This document shows, piece after piece, positions 151-24,204 of a stretch of DNA of 24,762 nt. The stretch lies in the IMG/VR virus record IMGVR_UViG_3300028920_000048; one strand, written 5' to 3'. A model generated the notes under the pieces. That model searched no databases, was not told where the DNA came from, and saw nothing but the letters and a program-made list of their open reading frames with translations. The translations under genes and the position numbers were made by a program. How positions within the stretch are numbered: the first letter of the stretch is position 1; each line of letters starts with the position of its first letter. The DNA is from a virus.

Positions 151-1767
151 CTACTTTACCTCCTTCCCATTCTCAAGCATTGGCATAGTCATGCCCATAA
201 GGACACGCACGCCCTGTTCCACGTTCGCCGAGAACATCGCCTTCAGCATCGGAATCCCAAGCCTATCCGGCGTGCTCACCGGGAGACTCGTCACATCAAC
301 TGAAAGCTCACGCACGCTTTCAGTCTCCGCCGCCATAACAGGGTTAATCTGGTAGATCGGAGTCGTATTGCCAATTTTCCTGAGCAAATGAACCACCTCG
401 GCGAATCGACCCGCCGGAGCGTTCTCATAGCCATCCGAAATAACAAAGATCACGTCCGGCTCGGCTTCCACTGCGTCCAAAAGCGCCTCAACCACGGACG
501 AGTCACCTTCCGGGAAAATCAGCTTTCCGGTTTTGTCCTTCATCGAGCGACCGCTACTTTGAAAGACCACACACTCTACCGCCACATATCGGAGAACGTC
601 ACGCACCGCCAGCGCAACCGCCATCGGACGAAGCTTCTGCGTCTTGTGCCCGAACATGCTGCCCGAAGCGTCGACCACAACCGCAACTTTATCAAACTTC
701 AAAGGCAGCTTCTCTGCGATCTCCTTCGCCTTCTTATCGCAGGCATCGGCAATCTTCTTGGTCATGCCCTGCTCGTAGGCGTACACATACAGGTCCACAA
801 TCCTCTGCTTTGTCGGATCGAAAGCGACCTTCACGCCAGCCGCCTTTGCCTGCTTCTGGACCTGCATCTTCTTGCGCTCAGACATGCCACCACGCTTGGC
901 AAGCTCAAGCACGTCTGCCTTCGTTGCAGTATCCTTATGATACCGACCACGCAAACCCTCCAGAGTCTCAATCGGCAAACCCTTTCCAGCCGACAGATTG
1001 GTCTTTGCCTTGACGAACTGCTTCAGCTTTGAGTGCGTCAAGTTCTCTTCATCGCCAAAAATGAATCGCACACACTCGTGGATTGTCGCCAGATTACGCC
1101 TGTCCCGATCTACAAACCTGTCCAGCCTGAAGCGCAAAATGCGCTTCTCCTTGGATGTGAGTTCAGCATCCGGCTTCTTAAGCAACTCAAAGACCAGCGT
1201 ACTCGTCCTGAGACCCCAAGCGTGCCGAAACACATTACGCAGCTTCCGACGGTACTTGACACACCAAAACGGCAAACTCTCAGCGTTCAGGTAGTAGCCA
1301 AGAATAATACGCTCGGTTCTGCTATTATGAATCTGCCCCGTTCTAACTCCGTCCTTCTTAACACCACCAAACGTCTGAAAGAGTTTGAGAGCCCTCTGCG
1401 GTTCAACATTCTCAACGAACCACTTAATCATCTTGAACTCAAGCTCCGGCGTTACGATAGAACGGCTGTCATTCTTGATCGGATTGGCAAGCAAACCAGC
1501 AATCGCCACCTGCCGGGAATAGTCCGTCACTCCGGGAAGCATCAAAGTGGCAGCATAAACGCCACGATCCAGCTTCATCAGCTCCTTATGAGCTTTGACC
1601 ACGGCATCAGCCTGATCCTCAGCCGTATTGTAGAAGGTCGCACGTTTGGTCGCAGTACACACGGCGTCAAGAAAGCTACTAAAGCGCCGACTAATCTCTG
1701 CCTTCACATTTGTATTCAAAACCGACAAGTCAACACCGGTCAGGACACCCAATGCTTGCGTTCCCAT
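151..1767 (-). CDS. Ro60/TROVE-like RNA-binding protein with C-terminal vWA domain
   Basis: ~538 aa. Basic, helical-looking N-terminal ~355 aa, then a vWA domain with MIDAS motif VVVDASGSM and downstream VISDGYEN. Size and layout match Ro60/Rsr, and the gene lies directly downstream of Y-like RNAs. Start moved from 1773 to ATG 1767 because the SD AAAGGAG abuts the first ATG and is 6 nt from the second. The vWA call is firm; the TROVE call is inference. Confidence 0.75.
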   Translation of the reverse strand: MGTQALGVLTGVDLSVLNTNVKAEISRRFSSFLDAVCTATKRATFYNTAEDQADAVVKAHKELMKLDRGVYAATLMLPGVTDYSRQVAIAGLLANPIKNDSRSIVTPELEFKMIKWFVENVEPQRALKLFQTFGGVKKDGVRTGQIHNSRTERIILGYYLNAESLPFWCVKYRRKLRNVFRHAWGLRTSTLVFELLKKPDAELTSKEKRILRFRLDRFVDRDRRNLATIHECVRFIFGDEENLTHSKLKQFVKAKTNLSAGKGLPIETLEGLRGRYHKDTATKADVLELAKRGGMSERKKMQVQKQAKAAGVKVAFDPTKQRIVDLYVYAYEQGMTKKIADACDKKAKEIAEKLPLKFDKVAVVVDASGSMFGHKTQKLRPMAVALAVRDVLRYVAVECVVFQSSGRSMKDKTGKLIFPEGDSSVVEALLDAVEAEPDVIFVISDGYENAPAGRFAEVVHLLRKIGNTTPIYQINPVMAAETESVRELSVDVTSLPVSTPDRLGIPMLKAMFSANVEQGVRVLMGMTMPMLENGKEVK

Positions 1768-1795
1768 GTTCATCTCCTTTCATTTTCATCATGTC

Positions 1796-1833: not shown

Positions 1834-1921
1834 CAGAGTATCACGCAGGTCGCTTTTGTGTGTTTGAAAGAACGGGATTTGAACCCGCAACCTTCGGCCT
1901 GTAGCAACTTGCAAGTCTCTG
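1834..1921 (-). ncRNA. Y-like RNA E: shared scaffold carrying a tRNA 3'-half mimic (T arm)
   Basis: CAGAG-ACU-UGCAA-GUUGCU-ACAG...AGCGAC-CUGCG-UGAUA-CUCUG, followed by G and U9. Insert GCCGAAGGUU-GCGGG-UUCAAAU-CCCGU-UCUUUCAAACA has a canonical T loop. Confidence 0.75.
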
Positions 1922-1942
1922 CCTATTTCCAGTTTCCGTCTT

Positions 1943-2027
1943 TCGTCCAACCCGCACCTGCGGGCAAAAGAATACCCATCGTCATCCGTCCAACCTCGTC
2001 CAACCCGAACGTTCGGGCGAAAGAACA
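1943..2027. repeat. Two 32-bp imperfect direct repeats, each with an internal palindrome
   Basis: 1943-1974 tcgtccaacccgcacctgcgggcaaaagaata and 1996-2027 tcgtccaacccgaacgttcgggcgaaagaaca; 27/32 identical, with one compensatory pair change in the hairpin. Confidence 0.8.
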
Positions 2028-2068
2028 CGAACCCCGTAGTTTTTTTGCAACATACATCATAAGCAAAC

Positions 2069-2155
2069 GACTGAAGAATAGTGCAGGTCGCTTTGAGAGT
2101 CGTCTAGGCCCCGAAAAACCTTTCAGAACACTGAAGCCACGTACAAGTCTTAGTC
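2069..2155 (-). ncRNA. Y-like RNA D: shared scaffold carrying an unassigned hairpin
   Basis: GACUAAG-ACU-UGUAC-GUGGCU-UCAGUG...AGCGAC-CUGCA-CUAUU-CUUCAGUC; insert hairpin GUUCUGAAA-GGUU-UUUCGGGGC. Confidence 0.7.
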
Positions 2156-2168
2156 CGTAATTTAAGTT

Positions 2169-2253
2169 GCGGGAGAATGTCGCAGGTCGCTTTTGTAGCT
2201 AATTAGTAGGTTAGCAACCTATTGGCACTGTAGCAACGTGCAAGTCTCACCGC
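2169..2253 (-). ncRNA. Y-like RNA C: shared scaffold carrying an anticodon-arm-like hairpin (GCU)
   Basis: GCGGUGAG-ACU-UGCAC-GUUGCU-ACAGUG...AGCGAC-CUGCG-ACAUU-CUCCCGC; insert UAGG-UUGCUAA-CCUA. Confidence 0.72.
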
Positions 2254-2263
2254 TGAATGTCAA

Positions 2264-2400
2264 GCCGGAGTAAGACGAGAGTCGTTTCACTTCTTTCTCG
2301 TTTTCAAGACGAGCGCCCTTCCTTTGGGCTATTCAAGCAAGATTGGAGCTTGAAGTGGGACTCGAACCCACAACACTGTAACGACGCCCTAGTCTCCGGC
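2264..2400 (-). ncRNA. Y-like RNA B: shared scaffold enclosing a complete circularly permuted tRNA (anticodon UGA)
   Basis: 7-bp terminal stem GCCGGAG/CUCCGGC. Inside, in order: T arm GUGGG-UUCGAGU-CCCAC, UUCAAGC-U-CCA, linker AUCUU, GCUUGAA, UA, D arm GCCC-AAAGGAA-GGGC, G, anticodon arm CUCGU-CUUGAAA-ACGAG. Confidence 0.85.
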
Positions 2401-2410
2401 GTAATTTTTG

Positions 2411-2530
2411 CCCGATGTCCAAGTCACCCTGAGATTCCTCGTGACTCACTCCGCCTAGCGAAGCAGAATTCTAACGGTGCCGCCCACAACTAGCTCAGGG
2501 ATACGGCGGGCTCTCTGCAAGGACAACGGG
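2411..2530 (-). ncRNA. Unassigned structured RNA within the array
   Basis: Ends pair (CCCGUUGUCC / GGACAUCGGG). Internal complementary segments CCCUGAG/CUCAGGG, GAGUCAC/GUGACUU and UUCUGCUU/AGGCGGAG. Lacks the shared scaffold. Confidence 0.45.
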
Positions 2531-2537
2531 ATTTCAT

Positions 2538-2670
2538 GTCAGAGTATAGTACCAGTCAAGTTCTAGTTGCCGTCCACACGGCACTACCCCCGATAGCGGG
2601 GGTAGCGGGAGTCGAACCCGCTTGTCACTACGGATTGCAGTAACACTGTATTGACGAGAAAGTCTCTGAC
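2538..2670 (-). ncRNA. Y-like RNA A: YrlA-like (T arm, closed acceptor stem, D arm) with an extra hairpin
   Basis: 7-bp terminal stem GUCAGAG/CUCUGAC and inner GUCAA/UUGAC. Hairpin UGUUACUGC-AAUCC-GUAGUGACA, T arm GCGGG-UUCGACU-CCCGC, closed acceptor UACCCCCG-CUAU-CGGGGGUA, D arm GCCG-UGUGGA-CGGC. Confidence 0.85.
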
Positions 2671-2748: not shown

Positions 2749-2776
2749 ATTATAGCACTAATCTCAAAAATGTCAA
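2749..2776 (-). promoter_or_regulatory. Consensus sigma70-type promoter for the ncRNA array and vWA gene
   Basis: TTGACA (2776-2771), 16-nt spacer ending in TGc, TATAAT (2754-2749): perfect -35 and extended -10, with an AT-rich tract upstream. Confidence 0.9.
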
Positions 2777-3096: not shown

Positions 3097-3311
3097 CCGT
3101 TCCTTCAAACTTAGACAAAACCGACATCTAAGCACAAAGGTTTGTATCGGGAACCGTAGGTACCCGAAAGAAACCGTCCGAGAATATTCAAGGCAGCATT
3201 GATGTCTGCATTGCCAGTTAATCCACAAACCTGACACTTGAACTCCTCACCATGACGATTACTCCTATTGGTGTGACCACAGTTGGAACACTTCTGACTT
3301 GTATAAGCTGG
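3097..3311 (-). mobile_element. tnpB: tnpB 3' remnant A with probable right end (IS607/IS1341-like)
   Basis: DPAYTSQKCSNCG...FKCQVCG...NADINAALNI (Zn ribbon + RuvC III), then hairpin GCTTAGA..TCTAAGT and ...GGAACGG, taken as the element end. Confidence 0.8.
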
Positions 3312-3640
3312 GTCAATTACCACGGAGACGAGCCCCGTGGCTTGCCTTTCAATTAAGAAGGCTTCAGGGCTGATTGACTCGGCAGCCCGTTGTCCCGAAG
3401 GACAATATAGCGGTTCCTGATGTTTATCGCCGCATTTACGTCACTATGGCACTCAAAACCACATTGGGAGCATCTAAATATATGACGGCTTCTCGCACCA
3501 ATAAGACCACATCGAGAGCACAATTGACTCGTCTGATAAGGACTCACTTCATCGACGGCAACACCTATCAGTTCAGTCCGGCTTTCAATACACTGCCGGA
3601 GCAAGTTGTACGGAAACCCAGACAGTCTTCTGTGCAATGC
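3312..3640 (-). mobile_element. tnpB: tnpB 3' remnant B with IS200/IS605-type right end, nested in remnant A
   Basis: VSPYQTSQLCSRCG...FRCSQCG...SDVNAAINI, then AAG-CCACGGGG-CTCG-TCTCCGTGG-TAATTGAC subterminal hairpin and end. The 5' part of the gene is missing. Confidence 0.8.
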
Positions 3641-3723
3641 TTATTCAGCAAGCACTCTTACGAGTTCTTGCCTCTTCTGGCGTGTAGCAAACTTCAGGCT
3701 ACATTTACTGGACCTTGTTATCT

Positions 3724-4089
3724 TCATGTTTCTCTCAAACATTCCAACTGATAATTCGTTAACCTAACCTGAAATCTTTCTTCTATAGCATCTATCAAAT
3801 CTATCTCATTCACTTCTCCACGGGCTATTTCTTTGAACCATGTTTCATCGAATTCGGTAACAAATTTTGCAATACCATGATGGTTTGTCTCAAGATTAGA
3901 TGCTTCGTTTTTCATATTTTTCTTTGCGTCACTAATCTTTTGTTTTCCATCACCGAACCTATACCACATTGCTTCTTGAGCTCTCTCTTTAGAGTTATAT
4001 CCACAACCCTGAGCATCATCTAATGTTTTTCCATTGTCATCAACAATGATGAATCTCACACAATTGGGTTTTGGTATTACCTTCGCCAT
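3724..4089 (-). CDS. Hypothetical protein (AT-rich, likely acquired)
   Basis: 121-aa ORF with AGGAGG/AAGGAG upstream of the ATG; visibly lower GC than the replication genes. Confidence 0.7.
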   Translation of the reverse strand: MAKVIPKPNCVRFIIVDDNGKTLDDAQGCGYNSKERAQEAMWYRFGDGKQKISDAKKNMKNEASNLETNHHGIAKFVTEFDETWFKEIARGEVNEIDLIDAIEERFQVRLTNYQLECLRET

Positions 4090-6480: not shown

Positions 6481-7376
6481 TACACAAGCCTCCACAGGTC
6501 TTTCAGAAGCGAAACAAAGCTCTTCTCGATGCAAAGCTGTCTCAAAGCGTCCTCGTCCCCGGCTTCCCCGACAACACCCGGCAATTCCGGCACAATGTCC
6601 ATCTGCTTCAACGACCGTGCCAGATCAACCCGGTCCAGATGCTCCAAAAGCGCATCTTCGATCTTCCCACGTTTTTGCTTCGCCCTGACCGCCTCAATCA
6701 CAGCCTCAACAGAGCCATGCTGCTGGATATACTTGCAAGCAGTTTTCACGCCCCACTTCGGAACACCGTGGATGTTATCGCCACTGTCGCCTTCCAAAGC
6801 CCCGACATCAACCCACAGCCTCGGCTCAAAACCATACTCAGTCTCGAAATCATCCGCAGTGAATCTGGTCTTCTTGTCCGCTGCCGGATTGTATATCGTA
6901 ACGTTCGGTCGCAGGAGTTGATAAAAGTCCTTGTCCGACGTAATGACAACGACCGGTCGCAGAACGGCGTACTGGTGGACATAGGTGAAAATAATATCGT
7001 CAGCTTCAAACCCCTTCTTGTGGGACTGTACGACGTTTGTAAGGGGCAAGAAATCGTCTCGAAGCGTATCCATCTGCTCAAACATCAACTCGAACTCTGG
7101 CGGAGCCTCACGATCCTTCCTGTTCTGCTTGTAAGCCGAAGGAATGATACCAGCTTCGACACCAGCTTCTGACTCTCTTTTACGACGCTCAGAACCCCAG
7201 TCCCACGCCACAACGAAGTCTTCTTGCTTGTAGTCCTTCCTAAGAGCTATCAAACTCCTCAAAAAGCCGTACAACAAACCAACGTTCATCGCCTTGTGAC
7301 GAAGCTGCCTGTGAGTCCAAAACACCCTATAACTCAGATTGTTGCCGTCGATCAGAACCAAACCCTTCTCAGACAT
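6480..7376 (-). CDS. 5'-3' exonuclease / flap endonuclease (Pol I N-terminal-like)
   Basis: LIDGNN, YKQNR, FEADD, TSDKDFYQL, GDSGDNIHGVPKWGVKTA (H3TH); start at ATG 7376 with GGAGG SD. Confidence 0.92.
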   Translation of the reverse strand: MSEKGLVLIDGNNLSYRVFWTHRQLRHKAMNVGLLYGFLRSLIALRKDYKQEDFVVAWDWGSERRKRESEAGVEAGIIPSAYKQNRKDREAPPEFELMFEQMDTLRDDFLPLTNVVQSHKKGFEADDIIFTYVHQYAVLRPVVVITSDKDFYQLLRPNVTIYNPAADKKTRFTADDFETEYGFEPRLWVDVGALEGDSGDNIHGVPKWGVKTACKYIQQHGSVEAVIEAVRAKQKRGKIEDALLEHLDRVDLARSLKQMDIVPELPGVVGEAGDEDALRQLCIEKSFVSLLKDLWRLV

Positions 7377-9819
7377 CACTGACCTCCACATCGCAAGATT
7401 TTTCATCCTTTTCCGGTTTCTTCTTTACAGGATGCTTTGCTTCACCCAATCCAGAGTTGGTCTTCTTTTTCTTTTTACCACTGGACATCTTCACAGGCTT
7501 ACTCTGACCATCAAATTTCTTCAAAAACATCTGCTCGATTTCAGCCATAAACTTTGGGTCTTCCTTCATGCTCTCTATAGCATTGAGCCGTCCCTGCCCA
7601 AGCGAAGTCCCATCGTGCTTCTTGAACCACGAACCGGCTTTCCGAACAAATTTGAGATTCAACGCTTCGATGAACAACTCCGTTGGCCTGTCAAGACCAG
7701 ACCCAAATTTTAATATCACCTCACCCTTACGAAACGGTGGAGCAACTTTATTTTTCATACCACGAACTTGACACTTAATGCCAATAACCTTGGATTGGTC
7801 GCCATCATTATCCTTTTCTGAGCCTATACGTTTGATTTCCAACCTGATAGAAGAATAAAAACCCAAAGCACGACCACCCGGTGTCGTTGTCTTGTCGCCA
7901 AACATTACGCCGATCTTCTCCCGTATCTGATTCGTAAAAATCAGGGTCGAGTTTCTTCTCCCGGCATCACGTGTGAGCTGGCGCATTGCCTTGCTCATAA
8001 GCCTCGCCTGAGCACCCATAGAACCACCACCGCTCCCGAGACTGATCTCGTCGTCTTCCTCCCTCGGCACCAAAGCCGCAACAGAATCACAGACTACAAG
8101 ACCACAACCCTCTCGGACAAGTTGCTTGACGTTGTTCAACGCCTGTTCACCGCTTTCAGGCTGAACATGCAGGACAGGCTCAGGATCAAGCCCAAGCAAC
8201 TTGGCATAGTTCTCGTCGAAAGCAAACTCAGTGTCCACAAACGCTATCGGCTCATCCGAGTACTTCTTCTGAAACTCAGCCATAGCATGATAGCAGAGCG
8301 TCGTGTTGTGACTGATAAGCCCATTGGACCAAAAAGTATGATCAGGCTTTGTGAAATCAAAAGTCGGTACTGGATCAGTTGGTTTTTCCACCTTCTTCAC
8401 CACATCAGTACGCCAACCAGCACCATAAAACCTCCTCATGTAAAGGAGTATGGCCGACGCCGCCGGTCCAAATAGATAATTCTCAGAAACAGCGATCAAC
8501 TTTTGAAACTTCTGAGAGGTAAGCTCACATTTCCCAGCAGCGCAATCTCCAAGCAAACAACATAACGAGCGATCAGAATTTGCACAATCCGAAAGCAAAA
8601 CAGCCGCCATCCATGCAGAACTTTGCATATTGCTATGCGTCGTTTCATGAGATATCTCCGGCACCACCTTGTTCGGGAAAAAAGTCGATGGATAAACCAT
8701 AGCCTGCCACGCTGAAGCGTCAGCACCATCAAACGTCAAACGCCAATATATTTCATCATCAACGGGCTTAGGACACAACGCCCCAAATGCACCCAAATTC
8801 AAAGCCATAAGCTGAACTTGACAAAGCAATTCTCTCGATTTACTGGAAATCTCAATCCTTCGTCTATCTCCGCTCGAATCAACAGAGCCTTCGCACCCGT
8901 ATATGGTCCTTAAAAAAGCTGTTTGAACAAACAAAGGAGCCGTCCTGACGCAACGTGGGACAACCTTGCCGTCGGCCAACGATTGCGCCACACCATACCT
9001 ACCACAGAACTCATCAAAGAGATCAACACTATTGCAATGCAGTTCTATGGTCGTCCTATCCGGTTGATGGTATTCCAAAACATTATCGAAGCCAAACTTT
9101 AGTTTCATCAACCGACGAAACTCTGTCAACAAGCCAGCATTGGTATTACTAAAACCAATCCTGCCACGATGACCGATATAGCCCTCCGCTATGACAAGCC
9201 CAAGAAGCACGGCATCATCTTCATCACAGCCATTCTCTGGCGGGTCAAGCATCATCCCACCTTGAACGACAACACGATCACCACAAACCACATCCGAACA
9301 GTATTTCCACCCCACAAAACCTCGATCATCCATAACACGAATTGGATGACGATAAGTACCACCAAGCTTCAAACCTCGTGACGTTTCAATACGCACGACC
9401 TTACGTTTATTGTTCCACCAAAAATGGGTTGTATCCTCTAAAAATCCATCTTCAGAGACCAACGGATACGAATGTTCTACCACACGTGAAGTGCACGAAG
9501 CCAAATAACCCTCGCCACTGAAGACCTCATGAACGGTTTCAAGACCACGCCTGCCGTAAAGAAACGTATCAGCTTCAACACACTTCCCACCAGACTCGGC
9601 ACCGTAAATCTCGACGATTCTACCACGAGGCCATCCCCCTCCAAGCACCCAATCAAGCACAAGAGAACCGGAATGGAACCGTTCAATGTTCTTCGTCTCG
9701 CACTCCCCGAGCAACGAAATGGCGTCGTTGTGTTCCCCACCCCATTCGCTCTTGTTGATGTCCTCGCAAATCTTCTTCAAGCGTTCACGCATTTGGTCAT
9801 CCAATGCCCACCACCTCAA
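7369..9819 (-). CDS. recA: RecA/UvsX-like recombinase containing an intein
   Basis: GGGWPRGRIVEIYGAESGGK|intein|TT, DSVAALVP, QARLMSKAMR, NQIREKIGVMFG, KNKVAPPF. The true start may be a few codons downstream. Confidence 0.95.
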   Translation of the reverse strand: MRWWALDDQMRERLKKICEDINKSEWGGEHNDAISLLGECETKNIERFHSGSLVLDWVLGGGWPRGRIVEIYGAESGGKCVEADTFLYGRRGLETVHEVFSGEGYLASCTSRVVEHSYPLVSEDGFLEDTTHFWWNNKRKVVRIETSRGLKLGGTYRHPIRVMDDRGFVGWKYCSDVVCGDRVVVQGGMMLDPPENGCDEDDAVLLGLVIAEGYIGHRGRIGFSNTNAGLLTEFRRLMKLKFGFDNVLEYHQPDRTTIELHCNSVDLFDEFCGRYGVAQSLADGKVVPRCVRTAPLFVQTAFLRTIYGCEGSVDSSGDRRRIEISSKSRELLCQVQLMALNLGAFGALCPKPVDDEIYWRLTFDGADASAWQAMVYPSTFFPNKVVPEISHETTHSNMQSSAWMAAVLLSDCANSDRSLCCLLGDCAAGKCELTSQKFQKLIAVSENYLFGPAASAILLYMRRFYGAGWRTDVVKKVEKPTDPVPTFDFTKPDHTFWSNGLISHNTTLCYHAMAEFQKKYSDEPIAFVDTEFAFDENYAKLLGLDPEPVLHVQPESGEQALNNVKQLVREGCGLVVCDSVAALVPREEDDEISLGSGGGSMGAQARLMSKAMRQLTRDAGRRNSTLIFTNQIREKIGVMFGDKTTTPGGRALGFYSSIRLEIKRIGSEKDNDGDQSKVIGIKCQVRGMKNKVAPPFRKGEVILKFGSGLDRPTELFIEALNLKFVRKAGSWFKKHDGTSLGQGRLNAIESMKEDPKFMAEIEQMFLKKFDGQSKPVKMSSGKKKKKTNSGLGEAKHPVKKKPEKDEKSCDVEVSDV
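8305..9582 (-). mobile_element. Intein with LAGLIDADG endonuclease in the RecA P-loop (426 aa)
   Basis: Begins CVEADT, ends ISHN before Thr; block B TYRHPI; LLGLVIAEG and FLRTIYGCEG motifs. Confidence 0.93.
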
Positions 9820-19441: not shown

Positions 19442-21019
19442 CTACATCTTGCGCTTCTTTTTGAAACGCTGAAGACCACTTACAATGGCTTTGTCCTCAG
19501 CCTCGTCCACCTTTGCCGACACATCCAACGCCTTCTCGTCTTCGTCCCCGGACTTGGACTCAAAATCGACCTTCGGCTCTGATTTTGTCACCATAGTCTT
19601 GGTGGATTTTTCACTTGGAACATCTTTGTCATCGTCCGGGTCTTTAATCCCCTTTTCCTCATCGCTCCCCTTTGGGATTTCCCTGACGAATCCACTTTTC
19701 ACCTCACGCAGCATTTTGAAACCAAATGGAGGACCATCACGGTTTTTAACTACGTTGGCCTTCCAGTAAATGTCTCGCTCGCCCTCTTCCCGATCATCCT
19801 GATAACTGACACGATGCAACTCCATAATACCCATAACGGTCTGAGCATCGTGAGATTTCTTTTTGCTACCATAAAGATCATACTTCTGAAACGTCTTATT
19901 TTTCGTCTGTTTTTCTTCCACAGCCGTCGCCGCCTGCGTCGGAATCACGATAGGACAATCAATACACTTGGACAACGCCCTGATGTCGGAAGAAATTCGA
20001 GCTTCCATACCCGTCTCAGTAAGCCGCACACCAGCAATCGGAGTCGGAGCAAACTTGTCCATGTAATCAATTACGATCACATCTGCGGACAACCCCATCT
20101 GAGTATGCTCGTAGAAAGCCCGCTCGACCTCACGAACGGTCGTATCCTGCGGTATTTCCTTAACATAGACACGACCGAACTCGCCGGACTTCATGCTTTC
20201 CATAACTTGACGCCAGTTCTCAATCTCTTCATCACTAAGCTTGCCGCGCTTGAAATCCAAGTAATTGAGCCGACTGTAAAGTGCATCAAACTTCGATGTC
20301 ACCTGAATCTCGTTTTCCTCGTTTGAGATATACAAAACGCTCTTACCGGTATGAATAATATTGTACGAAACCATTTTCACAAACGTAGACTTTCCAACAC
20401 CGGTCACCGCACCAATGACTGTAACCTCGGACTTGAACAAACCACCAGTATAGTAATCAAACGTACCAAACCCCGTCTGAACTCCCGCGTACTTGGCTGG
20501 ATTATTGCGCTTGTCAATTACAAGAGCAATCCGGTCCTCAAAAGTTTCAACCACATCAACAATCGGTCTGTCGTCCCCCTTAGAGCCAATATAGAGCGGT
20601 TCTGTTCTGATCCTTTGAAGCGCCACCGGAACCTCACCACGCTCCAAGTCATCAACCACATCCCCCATAACATCAGAGATTTCCCTGCCCACAGCCAGCT
20701 CTTCAAGCTCGGTAGCGATCATTTCGGGACTCTCAGGAACGTCCATTTTCTGAATGAGATTCCATTCAAGCTCCAAATCGTTCTTCTCTTCTGCAAGTCC
20801 CCGCTTCTGAAGCACAGCAAATAGTATACGACGAGTGAAAACCGACTTCGTTTTCTCATAGCACCTAACGATCAAATTAAGCAACTCACGACGCACAAAG
20901 CCAGTAAACCAACGACTCTGCACAACATGCACAAACCGCTGCAAGGTCATCTTGTCCCTTATCAGCAGCCTAAGCATCGCTCTTTCGAGATCACGACTTA
21001 TAAATCTGTCGACACTCAT
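19442..21019 (-). CDS. dnaB: DnaB-like replicative helicase
   Basis: GVQTGF..FD..TGG, GAVTGVGKS, SNE, VIDY, PTQ, KNRDG. Confidence 0.92.
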   Translation of the reverse strand: MSVDRFISRDLERAMLRLLIRDKMTLQRFVHVVQSRWFTGFVRRELLNLIVRCYEKTKSVFTRRILFAVLQKRGLAEEKNDLELEWNLIQKMDVPESPEMIATELEELAVGREISDVMGDVVDDLERGEVPVALQRIRTEPLYIGSKGDDRPIVDVVETFEDRIALVIDKRNNPAKYAGVQTGFGTFDYYTGGLFKSEVTVIGAVTGVGKSTFVKMVSYNIIHTGKSVLYISNEENEIQVTSKFDALYSRLNYLDFKRGKLSDEEIENWRQVMESMKSGEFGRVYVKEIPQDTTVREVERAFYEHTQMGLSADVIVIDYMDKFAPTPIAGVRLTETGMEARISSDIRALSKCIDCPIVIPTQAATAVEEKQTKNKTFQKYDLYGSKKKSHDAQTVMGIMELHRVSYQDDREEGERDIYWKANVVKNRDGPPFGFKMLREVKSGFVREIPKGSDEEKGIKDPDDDKDVPSEKSTKTMVTKSEPKVDFESKSGDEDEKALDVSAKVDEAEDKAIVSGLQRFKKKRKM

Positions 21020-24000
21020 AAAAGCTCCAAAAGCTCCTTACGGCTCAACTTTCGCACGAAACCAAGCCCCAAATCATCGTCACCAAGCACTTCAGCCGTA
21101 ACGGTCGACCTACCATATAATGCCGCTCGCACACGCTCTTCAACAGTATTACGACAAACAAAATTGATCACCGTAACACAGCCCTCTTGCTTGATCCGGT
21201 GGCACCTATCTTCCCGCTGCTTCATGACAAACGGCACCCAACGATCATCATAGTTCACTACGTAGTGGGCACCAATCAAATTGAGCCCCTCTGACATGGC
21301 ATCAGTACCCACAATAACGTCAATCTTCGGATCAGTATTGAAACGTTCAGCCATCGCAGGGCGCTTTTTCTTCGGTGTATTACCCCACATATAGAGACAA
21401 TTGATTCCCAGTTCTTTCAACTCACGCAAGATGATCTCAGCCATGTCAGAGAACTGACTAAAAACGACCACCTTCTGACAATCTTCATGCACAAGCTCTG
21501 TCATCACGTCCAAAAACACTTCCATCTTCGACGCTAACGGAAGGTCAAAGTCCAATATTTCAGGATGGTCACAAAACTGTTTACAACGCAACACAGCCGT
21601 CAAAGCAGCCGCCTCGCTCTCCTCGTCCACGTCAGCATCATAAAGCCCCTCCTTGATCTCCCCGTAAATCTCCATCTCTTTCGGACTGAGAATAATCTGG
21701 CGAGTCTGATAGACCTTATCCGGCAAATCAGGAAGCACTTTCTTCTTGAGCCGTCGAAGGAAAAAAAATCCGATCTTCTTCTTGACTCGCTTCAAGCCCT
21801 TATAGCGAATTGGCCTGCCAAAGTAATCAAAAACAGCGTGCCTCTCAAGGAAAGCAGTCTTGGTCCCGAGCAACCGAGGAACGACCCAATCCATGACAGA
21901 GTGTAAGTCCTCCAACCTTCCGTCCATCGGTGTACCGGTCAGCCCAATACGAAACTTGGACTTAATTCTCTTGACGTTCTTTGTTCGCTTCGCCTTATGA
22001 GACCTAATCGCATGAATTTCGTCGCAAATCATCATATCCCACACACGTTCACGTACGGGCTTGAGCAGTTTAGCTCTCTCCTCAGCCTTCTCAATCATTT
22101 CAACCTTCTTCTCAATGGTTGCCTCGTCGTCGTCCTTGTGGATTACACGCTCCTTCCCGCCAAAAAGGTCTTCCAGTAGCAACTCATAGTTCACAATATA
22201 GAAGAAAACGTCATCGGTAAGCCACTGTCCGACCCGCTTGTCTGGATCGCCCTTGGCGTCGATCACAACGTACGACTCATCAGTGAACTTCTCGATCTCC
22301 ACGGGCCAGTTCCACTTCAAGCTCGCCGGAGTCACGATCAGACAATGCTCCGACCCACATTCGTACTTCATGTAGCAAGCCGTCGCCAAAGCCTGAATGG
22401 TGTTATGTGTAACCATTAGATCAGTTAAGTAATTCGGCTCTCCATACATCTCGAAATCATAAAGCCATCCATCCCACTGACGATCCTCAGTTGATGAAAC
22501 TTGAAGCCAAAAGAAATCTGGACTAGCAAGCATCTCAAGTTTCGTCAAGAGAGCCCCGATGCGATCACCATGCACAGATAACGCTGTTCTGGAATTCTCA
22601 CGTCTTGCAGCCCATCGGCCTTTAAGCGACGACAATCCGTCCCGCAAATAACCACGAACAGTCTGAACAATCCGAAACACAACATCCCTTGACGGATTTT
22701 GTGGTTCAACAGCATCGCTCATGTAAACCCTAGAGCACATCCCCAAAGCACGAAAAGACAAACCTGTCAAGTCTTTAAGCTCGCATAACAAACTGCGGCA
22801 TGGCACACTCAGTCCTACATTGGCGTTAGCTATCCTCCCGCATAATTGATCCAACTTCCGGGTCTTTTCCGCATCGCCGAAACCAATAGCCTGACGAAAA
22901 ACTCTCGCAAACTGCCCACCTATGGTTAGTCGCCAATATTCCTGTACCCCCTTTCTCGTTTCAACAACTTTTGGTGAGATCAAGCCTAGAACACCGAACC
23001 TTCTAAGCATGAAATGAACTGCATCAACAACCTTTCTTGACTTCGACGAAAGCTCAAGATTGTCCTCGTTGCAGCAACCTTCTGCGTCCCAATAAGCCCG
23101 AAGAAATTCCCTTACGACATCCATTCTGGCATTCTGAATACGCAGCGGCACAACCTTATTAGCAGACCTCTCACCCCAACGATAGTCTGGAAACTCACTC
23201 TCGACCTTCATTTTGTACTTCCGACTACATAGGTACAAAACATGCACACTACGATCAGTACGCACCCCAGACACATCCGTATAGTCAAACCCAGCCGACA
23301 GAAACCACTCATGCAAGTCATCCAAGATACGTCTGTCTTTTTGTGTTATCGTGAGAGTGTTACCACTCGATCTTGGTTCATGTCCCTCTGCAATCTGCCA
23401 TGCAAGAAATCGTGCTAATCCCACATCAACATCCTCTGGCACTGGAACATCTATCCGGGCCGCAACTCGAACCCAATCCTCTCCCTCTACAAGATCGGCT
23501 GCCCGCTTCCAACCATCAAGTGTCCAAAAGCCATGACGAAGACCAACATCAGTATATGAACCGTCTTGAAGCATAACACGACGAATTGTTGACGCCTTCT
23601 CTCGATAAATGCTCTTCACCGATTGCCATACGACTCGATCCACAATGCTTGAAATAAGACGCAATGAACGCCCACTCTTCAAAGCGTACCACTCTCCTCC
23701 ATCGCTCTCCACTTTCAATGGCTTCGTTTGGAAATCTCTTTCAAAAACATCACCAATCGTACGCCTTCCCATCTCAGACATCACACTGGATTCAGACACC
23801 GAACACTTGCCCAGTCCCATCTCGTCCGCAATGAGAACGCCCGTCCCGTTCGTCACTGCAAACAAGACACCCCAACGCTGATAGTTGTAAAGACGCTCTC
23901 CTGATCCCTTGATGCCCGGTATGCGCAACTTGATCGGCTTGTTCTTCTTCGCATTCCTGACAATACACTCCAGTTTCTCTTCCAGCTCGATCTGCGCTAC

Positions 24001-24204
24001 AAGCTTGTCCTCCAGATCGGGCTCAACCAGAACGTAATCAGGACCGTCCAGCAAGGCGGATACATTCTCTACCGTGAACGGCATGTGCCAACAGTTCCGA
24101 TTCCAAGCAGCTCCCAAACTCTTCGGGAGCTGCTTGTCGCCACGCTGGCAACGGTAGACAATCTCCCCGTCGATGATTCTGAGGAAGTATTCATCATAAG
24201 ACAT
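21016..24204 (-). CDS. SNF2-family helicase/ATPase containing an intein
   Basis: LYNYQ, ADEMGLGK|intein|TIQAL, DEIH, LTGTP, VFSQF, EGLNL, QREDRCHRI. Confidence 0.93.
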   Translation of the reverse strand: MSYDEYFLRIIDGEIVYRCQRGDKQLPKSLGAAWNRNCWHMPFTVENVSALLDGPDYVLVEPDLEDKLVAQIELEEKLECIVRNAKKNKPIKLRIPGIKGSGERLYNYQRWGVLFAVTNGTGVLIADEMGLGKCSVSESSVMSEMGRRTIGDVFERDFQTKPLKVESDGGEWYALKSGRSLRLISSIVDRVVWQSVKSIYREKASTIRRVMLQDGSYTDVGLRHGFWTLDGWKRAADLVEGEDWVRVAARIDVPVPEDVDVGLARFLAWQIAEGHEPRSSGNTLTITQKDRRILDDLHEWFLSAGFDYTDVSGVRTDRSVHVLYLCSRKYKMKVESEFPDYRWGERSANKVVPLRIQNARMDVVREFLRAYWDAEGCCNEDNLELSSKSRKVVDAVHFMLRRFGVLGLISPKVVETRKGVQEYWRLTIGGQFARVFRQAIGFGDAEKTRKLDQLCGRIANANVGLSVPCRSLLCELKDLTGLSFRALGMCSRVYMSDAVEPQNPSRDVVFRIVQTVRGYLRDGLSSLKGRWAARRENSRTALSVHGDRIGALLTKLEMLASPDFFWLQVSSTEDRQWDGWLYDFEMYGEPNYLTDLMVTHNTIQALATACYMKYECGSEHCLIVTPASLKWNWPVEIEKFTDESYVVIDAKGDPDKRVGQWLTDDVFFYIVNYELLLEDLFGGKERVIHKDDDEATIEKKVEMIEKAEERAKLLKPVRERVWDMMICDEIHAIRSHKAKRTKNVKRIKSKFRIGLTGTPMDGRLEDLHSVMDWVVPRLLGTKTAFLERHAVFDYFGRPIRYKGLKRVKKKIGFFFLRRLKKKVLPDLPDKVYQTRQIILSPKEMEIYGEIKEGLYDADVDEESEAAALTAVLRCKQFCDHPEILDFDLPLASKMEVFLDVMTELVHEDCQKVVVFSQFSDMAEIILRELKELGINCLYMWGNTPKKKRPAMAERFNTDPKIDVIVGTDAMSEGLNLIGAHYVVNYDDRWVPFVMKQREDRCHRIKQEGCVTVINFVCRNTVEERVRAALYGRSTVTAEVLGDDDLGLGFVRKLSRKELLELL
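22402..23805 (-). mobile_element. Intein with LAGLIDADG endonuclease in SNF2 motif I (468 aa)
   Basis: Begins CSVSES, ends MVTHN before Thr; FLAWQIAEG and FLRAYWDAEG; block F LYDFEM. Confidence 0.93.

What the first reader, a model, noticed from the sequence alone, without database searches (positions are those of the whole stretch)
2264..2400. Complete circularly permuted tRNA (anticodon UGA, internal CCA) with the scaffold stem in the variable-arm position
Seen: the order is T arm (2371-2355), acceptor 3' strand UUCAAGC + U + CCA (2354-2344), 5-nt linker, acceptor 5' strand GCUUGAA (perfect 7 bp), U8A9, 4-bp D arm with GG, G26, and a 5-bp anticodon arm with loop CU-UGA-AA. Known: in YrlA the Ro-binding stem replaces the anticodon arm, and tRNA-Ser has a long variable arm recognised by SerRS. 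Here the anticodon arm is kept and the scaffold sits where the variable arm would be. Inference: cutting the linker (RNase P plus 3' trimming) would give a two-piece tRNA with a free CCA, held together by the scaffold. It could be chargeable or act as a full-shape decoy. The discriminator is U rather than the usual Ser G73.
Basis: partly seen in the sequence, partly recalled or inferred. Interest (0 to 1): 0.88.

Follow-up and report, generated by a model that had tools for sequence, protein, structure and literature searches.

The report
Rotated whole-tRNA mimic beside Ro60-like gene
A large phage encodes a small RNA shaped like a complete tRNA written in rotated order and clamped by a protein-docking "handle"; the same design recurs in about 30 phage and metagenome sequences next to a hidden relative of the RNA-surveillance protein Ro60, and its anticodon changes freely, so it is most likely a tRNA look-alike rather than a working serine tRNA.

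Summary
Put back in normal order, the sequence is called tRNA-Ser(UGA) by ARAGORN. It is unit 2 of five same-handle RNAs upstream of a 540-aa gene whose predicted fold matches Ro60 (Z 19.3) but which Pfam misses. I found 31 distinct copies of the same wiring (handle, T arm, acceptor, D arm, anticodon arm, handle), none in the bacterial-genome loci searched. Twelve came from an RNA-only pattern that did not ask for the anticodon arm, CCA or protein. All seven acceptor and all five anticodon-stem pairs covary; 30 of 31 loops are 7 nt. CCA is kept in 20 of 23 long acceptor loops and 0 of 8 short ones. The anticodon is not kept: 17 triplets in 30, 10 starting with A, and this copy's acceptor end is Gly/Thr/Cys-like. 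Verdict: an undescribed variant of tRNA-like Y RNA that keeps its anticodon arm. Opening by RNase P is plausible (shown for M. smegmatis YrlA); serine charging is not supported. It fails YrlA membership. Nothing was tested at RNA level. This scan noted the same handle/Ro60-like system before on other DNA.

The parts
2264..2400 (-). Whole RNA unit B (137 nt): handle enclosing a rotated full tRNA cloverleaf
   Evidence: model R1 scores it 89 bits as a training member
2376..2400 (-). Handle, 5' side: outer stem strand 2400-2394, GAC-U motif, inner helix strand 2385-2380, conserved UACAG 2380-2376
   Evidence: shared by five window units (family D1) and by homologues
2355..2371 (-). T arm, 5 bp, canonical T loop
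   Evidence: 100% paired in 31 members
2332..2354 (-). Acceptor hairpin: 3' strand 2354-2348, U73, CCA 2346-2344, leader AUCUU, 5' strand 2338-2332; predicted RNase P cut between 2339 and 2338
   Evidence: all 7 pairs show double changes; the cut site is inference from PMC4201824
2314..2331 (-). U8-A9, 4-bp D arm with GG, G26
2297..2313 (-). Anticodon arm, 5 bp plus 7-nt loop; UGA at 2306-2304
2264..2296 (-). A-rich linker 2296-2287 and handle 3' side (inner strand 2286-2281, outer strand 2270-2264)
2538..2670 (-). Sister unit A: same handle, YrlA-type cargo (hairpin, T, acceptor, D-like arm); its apparent anticodon arm overlaps the handle and was excluded from the family count
2169..2253 (-). 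Sister unit C: same handle, short hairpin cargo
2069..2155 (-). Sister unit D: same handle, short hairpin cargo
1834..1921 (-). Sister unit E: same handle, T-arm-only cargo
2749..2776 (-). Sigma-70-type promoter, 12/12 match with extended -10, heading the array; an intrinsic terminator-like hairpin lies just upstream (2826-2793)
   Evidence: consensus match only
151..1773 (-). 540-aa divergent Ro60-fold protein (helical ring plus vWA domain), likely binding partner
   Evidence: AlphaFold pLDDT 93.8; Foldseek top 11 hits all Ro60/Rsr; VIA-align Z 19.3, rmsd 4.0 over 405 residues, 12% identity; no Pfam or PHROG hit

Best explanation
It is a non-coding partner RNA of the divergent Ro60-like ring protein encoded downstream. 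The two-helix handle docks on the protein, and the rotated cloverleaf is a full-shape tRNA mimic displayed as cargo. Steps: (1) the array is transcribed from the strong promoter and cut into units (inferred); (2) the handle binds the Ro60-fold protein (inferred from linkage and from Ro60/Y RNA biology); (3) the cargo folds as an L-shaped tRNA with elbow, acceptor arm and anticodon arm (secondary structure shown by covariation, tertiary inferred); (4) in the long-linker subtype, including this copy, host RNase P cuts at 2339/2338 and 3' exonucleases trim to the encoded CCA, giving a 57-nt plus 75-nt two-piece RNA held by the handle (inferred, about 55% given the rest); (5) it does not decode: it tethers or titrates host factors that read tRNA shape, most plausibly tRNA-directed nucleases or decay enzymes during infection (least certain step; the specific target is a guess at about 35%).
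For: 31 distinct members with the same wiring. 97.7% of cells paired, 16 of 20 pairs with changes on both sides, 0/500 shuffles as high, slid controls 26-46%. An RNA-only pattern that did not specify acceptor pairing, anticodon arm, CCA or protein gave 28 records (15 distinct) with a paired acceptor; all had a 5/5 anticodon stem, a 7-nt loop and no following T arm. 10 of the 12 new members lie 0.2-1.3 kb upstream of a gene of the same Ro-like family on the same strand; 28 of 30 overall are within 2.9 kb. The same handle also carries normal-order tRNA bodies, YrlA-type bodies and plain hairpins. Anticodon lability: 10/30 start with A versus 3/301 ordinary CCA-ended tRNAs of the same loci; in one close clade pairwise difference is 0.03 in the anticodon stem, 0.00 at 37-38, 0.33 at 34-36, 0.16 at CCA. 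Precedent for cleavage and CCA end: PMC4201824. Precedent for phage Ro60 binding upstream RNAs and host PNPase: PMC12135203.
Against: No transcript, end-mapping, binding or processing data. The handle lacks the YrlA Ro-binding motif, so binding rests on gene linkage and fold similarity at 12-14% identity. 19 of the 31 members were picked by a scan that required the stems, so part of the covariation is circular, and the 12 unbiased members are one related clade. 8 of 31 members have a short closed acceptor loop with no CCA, so opening is not universal. Salmonella YrlA was not cleaved by the anticodon nuclease studied in PMC7790460, though it has no anticodon loop.
Confidence: 0.72

Rival explanations
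1. Charged two-piece tRNA: after RNase P cutting and trimming, the RNA is aminoacylated and used, either by EF-Tu and the ribosome or as a tethered amino-acid donor. The first reader's version is serine via SerRS reading the scaffold as a long variable arm.
For: Perfect 7-bp acceptor with G1:C72, encoded CCA, canonical Ser(UGA) loop in this copy and in L029. CCA is conserved while the acceptor pairs turn over. Chen et al. 2014 raise aminoacylation as possible for cleaved M. smegmatis YrlA.
Against: Anticodon, discriminator (G10, U5, A4, C1 among CCA members) and acceptor pairs vary without matching each other. The other UGA member has C73. G71-C72-U73 is Gly/Thr/Cys-like and absent from 12 Ser tRNAs, 9 of which have G73. 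The handle hangs on flexible linkers and, if protein-bound, would be bulky on a ribosome (inference).
Confidence: 0.1
2. Permuted pre-tRNA gene in the algal/archaeal sense: the handle is excised, the ends are ligated at the variable loop into a circle, and RNase P and 3' trimming release an ordinary tRNA-Ser(UGA).
For: Joining the halves at the variable loop yields a valid tRNA by ARAGORN. Wang et al. 2018 raise such processing as a possibility for some YrlA RNAs.
Against: Known junctions lie in the D loop, anticodon loop, T stem or T loop and form a BHB motif (PMC3978253); here the junction is in the variable region with linkers of varying length and no conserved cut motif. The handle is kept on RNAs with no tRNA part. 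A third of the products would have A34 anticodons, and a 75-nt tRNA-Ser would lack the long arm (Ser tRNAs in these loci are 84-91 nt). The promoter is bacterial-type.
Confidence: 0.05
3. Shape-only stabiliser: the cloverleaf is a relic of a tandem tRNA pair captured in the handle. It is kept only because a tRNA fold, its modifications and a CCA end protect the Y-like RNA or guide cutting of the array; it baits nothing, and the anticodon drifts neutrally.
For: Free turnover of anticodon and acceptor sequence. Three of five window units have no full tRNA body. Protection by the tRNA fold and a dimeric-tRNA origin are proposed for YrlA. This shares steps 1-4 with the best explanation and differs only in step 5.
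Against: Loop length of 7 nt (30/31), purine 37 (30/30) and A38 (29/30) are held tightly, more than stability alone needs. Several different wirings are kept side by side in one array.
Confidence: 0.13

Closest known systems
YrlA, tRNA-like bacterial and phage Y RNA (Rfam RF02553; Chen et al. 2014, PMC4201824; Wang et al. 2018, 10.1101/312249)
   Same: Terminal stem enclosing T arm, closed acceptor and D arm in rotated order; encoded just upstream of a Ro60-fold gene on the same strand; M. smegmatis YrlA with a 7-bp acceptor is cut by RNase P and ends in CCA.
   Different: YrlA lacks the anticodon loop and its Ro-binding stem extends the anticodon stem; here a closed 5-bp/7-nt anticodon arm is kept and the handle joins at the variable region. 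No GNCGAAN0-1G motif. CCA is gene-encoded. Rfam score 29.6 against a cut-off of 69. The partner is not detected by Pfam TROVE.
Thermus phage phiLo Ro60 with Yrl1/Yrl2 (PMC12135203; PDB 9L5Y)
   Same: Phage-encoded Ro60 ring with several upstream RNAs sharing a terminal stem.
   Different: Yrl1/2 carry a CGAA motif and no tRNA body is described; 12% identity between the proteins.
Circularly permuted tRNA genes of algae and Thermofilum (Soma 2014, PMC3978253)
   Same: 3' part of a full tRNA precedes the 5' part, with an intervening sequence closing the acceptor.
   Different: Those have BHB junctions at 20/21, 37/38, 50/51 or 59/60 and are religated into working tRNAs; here the break is in the variable region, inside a retained handle, and anticodons are not decoding-like.
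Two-piece (permuted) tmRNA (Keiler et al. 2000, as summarised in PMC3978253 and PMC10085705)
   Same: Bacterial-type rotated gene processed into two unligated pieces with a tRNA-like acceptor end.
   Different: tmRNA has no anticodon arm and has a tag reading frame; this 137-nt RNA has no room for one and ARAGORN finds no tmRNA.

Membership tests
YrlA (RF02553) | Within about 4 kb of a Ro60 orthologue, same strand | tested here: met
   490 nt upstream of a Ro60-fold gene; 28/30 homologues likewise. Assignment is by predicted fold only; Pfam gives no hit.
YrlA (RF02553) | T arm, acceptor stem-loop, D arm in that order, with elbow residues | tested here: met
YrlA (RF02553) | GNCGAAN0-1G motif near the 5' end | tested here: not met
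   absent in this RNA and in 19 of the 20 sequences checked; replaced by RGAC...UACAG
YrlA (RF02553) | No anticodon loop; Ro-binding stem continues the anticodon stem | tested here: not met
   closed anticodon arm here and in 31 members; YrlA description
YrlA (RF02553) | Reaches the Rfam gathering score | tested here: not met
   29.6 bits over model positions 27-81 versus 69; no YrlA hit in six homologous loci
Y RNA (any) | Bound by a Ro60 protein through its terminal stem | not testable with these tools
   needs a binding assay
Permuted tRNA genes, types I-IV | Junction in D loop, anticodon loop, T stem or T loop, forming a BHB motif | tested here: not met
   junction is in the variable region with variable-length linkers
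Permuted tRNA genes, types I-IV | Religated to a canonical tRNA through a circular intermediate | not testable with these tools
tRNA-Ser (class II) | Ser anticodon in a canonical loop | tested here: met
   CU-UGA-AA in this copy, but only 2 of 30 family members have UGA
tRNA-Ser (class II) | Ser-type acceptor end (mostly C71-C72-G73) | tested here: not met
   G71-C72-U73 here; 0 of 12 Ser tRNAs in the fetched loci have it
tRNA-Ser (class II) | Long variable-arm helix stacked directly between anticodon and T arms | tested here: inconclusive
   handle is joined by 8- and 10-nt linkers, weakly paired here and mostly unpaired in relatives; 3D geometry untested
Two-piece tmRNA | Tag reading frame, no anticodon arm | tested here: not met
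   ARAGORN finds no tmRNA; Rfam tmRNA has no match at this locus

The most novel reading that the evidence does not exclude
The RNA is opened by RNase P into a CCA-ended two-piece tRNA that is aminoacylated while held on the Ro60-like ring, and its fast-changing anticodon loop is under diversifying selection as bait for host anticodon nucleases, making the array a phage-encoded, protein-tethered panel of tRNA decoys.
Probability: 0.1. Interest if true: 0.88.

Novelty: new variant of a known kind. Interest (0 to 1): 0.62.

Why it matters
What the tRNA-like domain of bacterial Y RNAs does is still open. Known YrlA RNAs lack an anticodon loop, which limits them to elbow and acceptor mimicry. This family keeps all four arms and often an encoded CCA, and sits in arrays where one handle carries tRNA bodies joined at the acceptor, the anticodon or the variable loop. 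That is a natural panel for asking which face of the tRNA must stay free and which host factor reads it. It also shows a Ro60 branch invisible to Pfam, a permutation point not listed among known permuted tRNA genes, and an annotation trap: rotated members are missed by tRNA finders, while their normal-order sisters are counted as real phage tRNAs.

Tried and rejected
ARAGORN on the native window found nothing. Sequence searches of the protein against PDB, Pfam and PHROGs gave no Ro60 hit; only the fold comparison did. A single-sequence viral scan found no relatives. BLASTN of the RNA against named phages gave only short T-arm matches; the protein matched one unannotated uncultured phage. Tandem tRNA pairs mimic this pattern; they were removed by testing for a following T arm and by ARAGORN. 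A second pattern built on this copy's acceptor end returned mostly tandem tRNAs and a few handle-less T-acceptor-D RNAs, no new members. Window unit A was first counted as a member, then dropped because its apparent anticodon arm uses bases needed for the handle. The covariance model found no full-type member in bacterial-genome loci; model scores of training members are circular. No whole genome is held. Burroughs and Aravind 2016 and 2023 and Sim et al. 2020 are not held, so a prior mention there cannot be excluded; ten literature searches found no description of this wiring.

Full report
Observation. The minimum-energy fold shows all four arms inside a terminal stem, z -3.7. Put back in normal order, it is called tRNA-Ser(tga) by ARAGORN, while the native order is invisible to it. 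Rfam gives only a partial YrlA match, 29.6 bits against a cut-off of 69. A relaxed version of the pattern arose once in 300 randomised windows, and the region is identical in an ENA assembly record.

Surroundings. The window carries a replication module (DnaB-like helicase, primase, RecA and SNF2 with inteins, 5'-3' exonuclease, UDG) and has no whole genome behind it, consistent with a large phage. The RNA is the second of five units between a perfect sigma-70 promoter at 2776-2749 and a 540-aa gene at 1773-151. All five share a two-helix handle, with GAC-U and UACAG on the 5' side, and differ in cargo. The protein has no Pfam, PHROG or PDB sequence hit but 235 relatives. Its model is confident (pLDDT 93.8); the top 11 Foldseek hits are all Ro60/Rsr, and VIA-align gives Z 19.3, rmsd 4.0 over 405 residues, well above vWA-only matches near Z 12. 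It is a divergent Ro60-fold protein. In homologous loci it is followed by an ARPP-1 gene; the window ends too soon to tell here.

Family. Scanning 180 loci fetched by the protein gave 18 further distinct non-tandem copies of the full rotated cloverleaf, all inside the same handle. Because that scan required the stems, I ran an independent test: a DNA pattern containing only the handle's TTACAG, the T loop and the D-stem start. Of 39 hits, 28 records (15 distinct) had a paired acceptor, and every one had a 5/5 anticodon stem, a 7-nt loop and no following T arm; one was truncated and ten were chance or tandem matches. Ten of the 12 new members lie just upstream of a gene of the same Ro-like family. 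These 12 are one related clade, so they are not 12 independent events. Across 31 members, 97.7% of cells pair and all acceptor and anticodon-stem pairs show double changes. A covariance model found no such member in the bacterial-genome loci, which carry the handle with YrlA-type or normal-order cargo.

What is and is not conserved. Kept: 7-nt loop (30/31), purine 37 (30/30), A38 (29/30), D and T elbow residues, and CCA at 74-76 in 20 of 23 members with an acceptor loop of 7 nt or more, against 0 of 8 with shorter loops. Not kept: the anticodon (17 triplets in 30; 10 begin with A, against 3 of 301 ordinary tRNAs of the same loci once ACG is set aside), U33 (24/30 against 281/301) and the discriminator. 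In the close clade the anticodon stem differs at 3% of sites, positions 34-36 at 33% and CCA at 16%. This copy's acceptor end, G71-C72-U73, occurs in 22 Gly, 10 Thr and 7 Cys tRNAs and no Ser tRNA of the same loci. The handle joins through flexible linkers and is found on RNAs without a tRNA body, so it is not a serine variable arm.

Mechanism. Best reading (0.72): a Y-like partner RNA whose handle docks on the Ro60-like ring and whose cargo is a whole-tRNA mimic. Shown: structure, conservation, linkage, fold of the partner. Inferred: expression, binding, and opening by RNase P at 2339/2338 with trimming to CCA, for which M. smegmatis YrlA is the precedent (PMC4201824). Guessed: that it tethers or titrates tRNA-directed nucleases or decay enzymes; phage phiLo Ro60 with its RNAs dampens host PNPase (PMC12135203), and a nuclease-inhibitor role was suggested for YrlA (PMC7790460). 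Rivals: shape-only stabiliser with a drifting anticodon (0.13), charged two-piece tRNA (0.10), religated permuted tRNA (0.05).

Comparison and novelty. It works like YrlA but is not a member: it lacks the GNCGAAN0-1G motif, keeps the anticodon loop that YrlA lacks (10.1101/312249) and falls far below the Rfam cut-off. It is not a type I-IV permuted tRNA gene, whose junctions lie elsewhere and form BHB motifs (PMC3978253). Ten literature searches found no description of this wiring, but three relevant papers were not available. Earlier unchecked notes of this scan describe the same handle, Ro60-like and ARPP module and rotated tRNA bodies on other DNA; they are not evidence, and I reached the reading before seeing them. 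Verdict: real, conserved, a new variant of a known kind; the serine and charging claims are weak. Interest 0.62.

Noticed in passing
L019:2527-2599, L021:2234-2309, L020:2851-2926, L023:741-816 and others: Normal-order tRNA bodies embedded in the same handle are called as real tRNAs by ARAGORN and Rfam; near-identical bodies carry different anticodons (Ala, Ser, Asp, Ile calls). Of 95 such searches have A34 and only 17 end in CCA (the handle filter was a loose pattern).
   Followed up: partly
L010, L025, L028, L029, L146, L160, L241, L243, directly after the Ro-like gene: An ARPP-1 family gene follows the Ro-like gene. PMC9503650 lists other ARPP neighbourhoods but not this one. The 150 nt after the gene in the window do not obviously start an ARPP protein.
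   Followed up: partly
window 2411-2530 (-): A 120-nt structured segment without the handle fills the gap between units A and B (MFE -42.8); no Rfam match.
   Followed up: no
window 1940-2030 (-): Two 33-nt direct repeats 53 nt apart, each a small hairpin region, between units D and E (family D4).
   Followed up: no
window 3100-3750 (-): Broken TnpB/Cas12f-like remnant with a zinc-finger hit at 3353-3637 just upstream of the RNA array.
   Followed up: no
window 7369-9819 and 21016-24204 (-): RecA and an SNF2 helicase each carry a LAGLIDADG intein.
   Followed up: no
L224, L231, L232, L237: T-acceptor(CCA)-D RNAs with a 7/7 acceptor, no anticodon arm, no UACAG handle and no Ro-like gene of this family in the held DNA.
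   Followed up: no
L033:3559, L034:3264-3750, L045:3520-3820, L051:3468-3690: Planctomycete genomes carry arrays of the same handle upstream of the Ro-like gene, often at the end of large tRNA arrays, but no unit with the full rotated cloverleaf was found there.
   Followed up: partly
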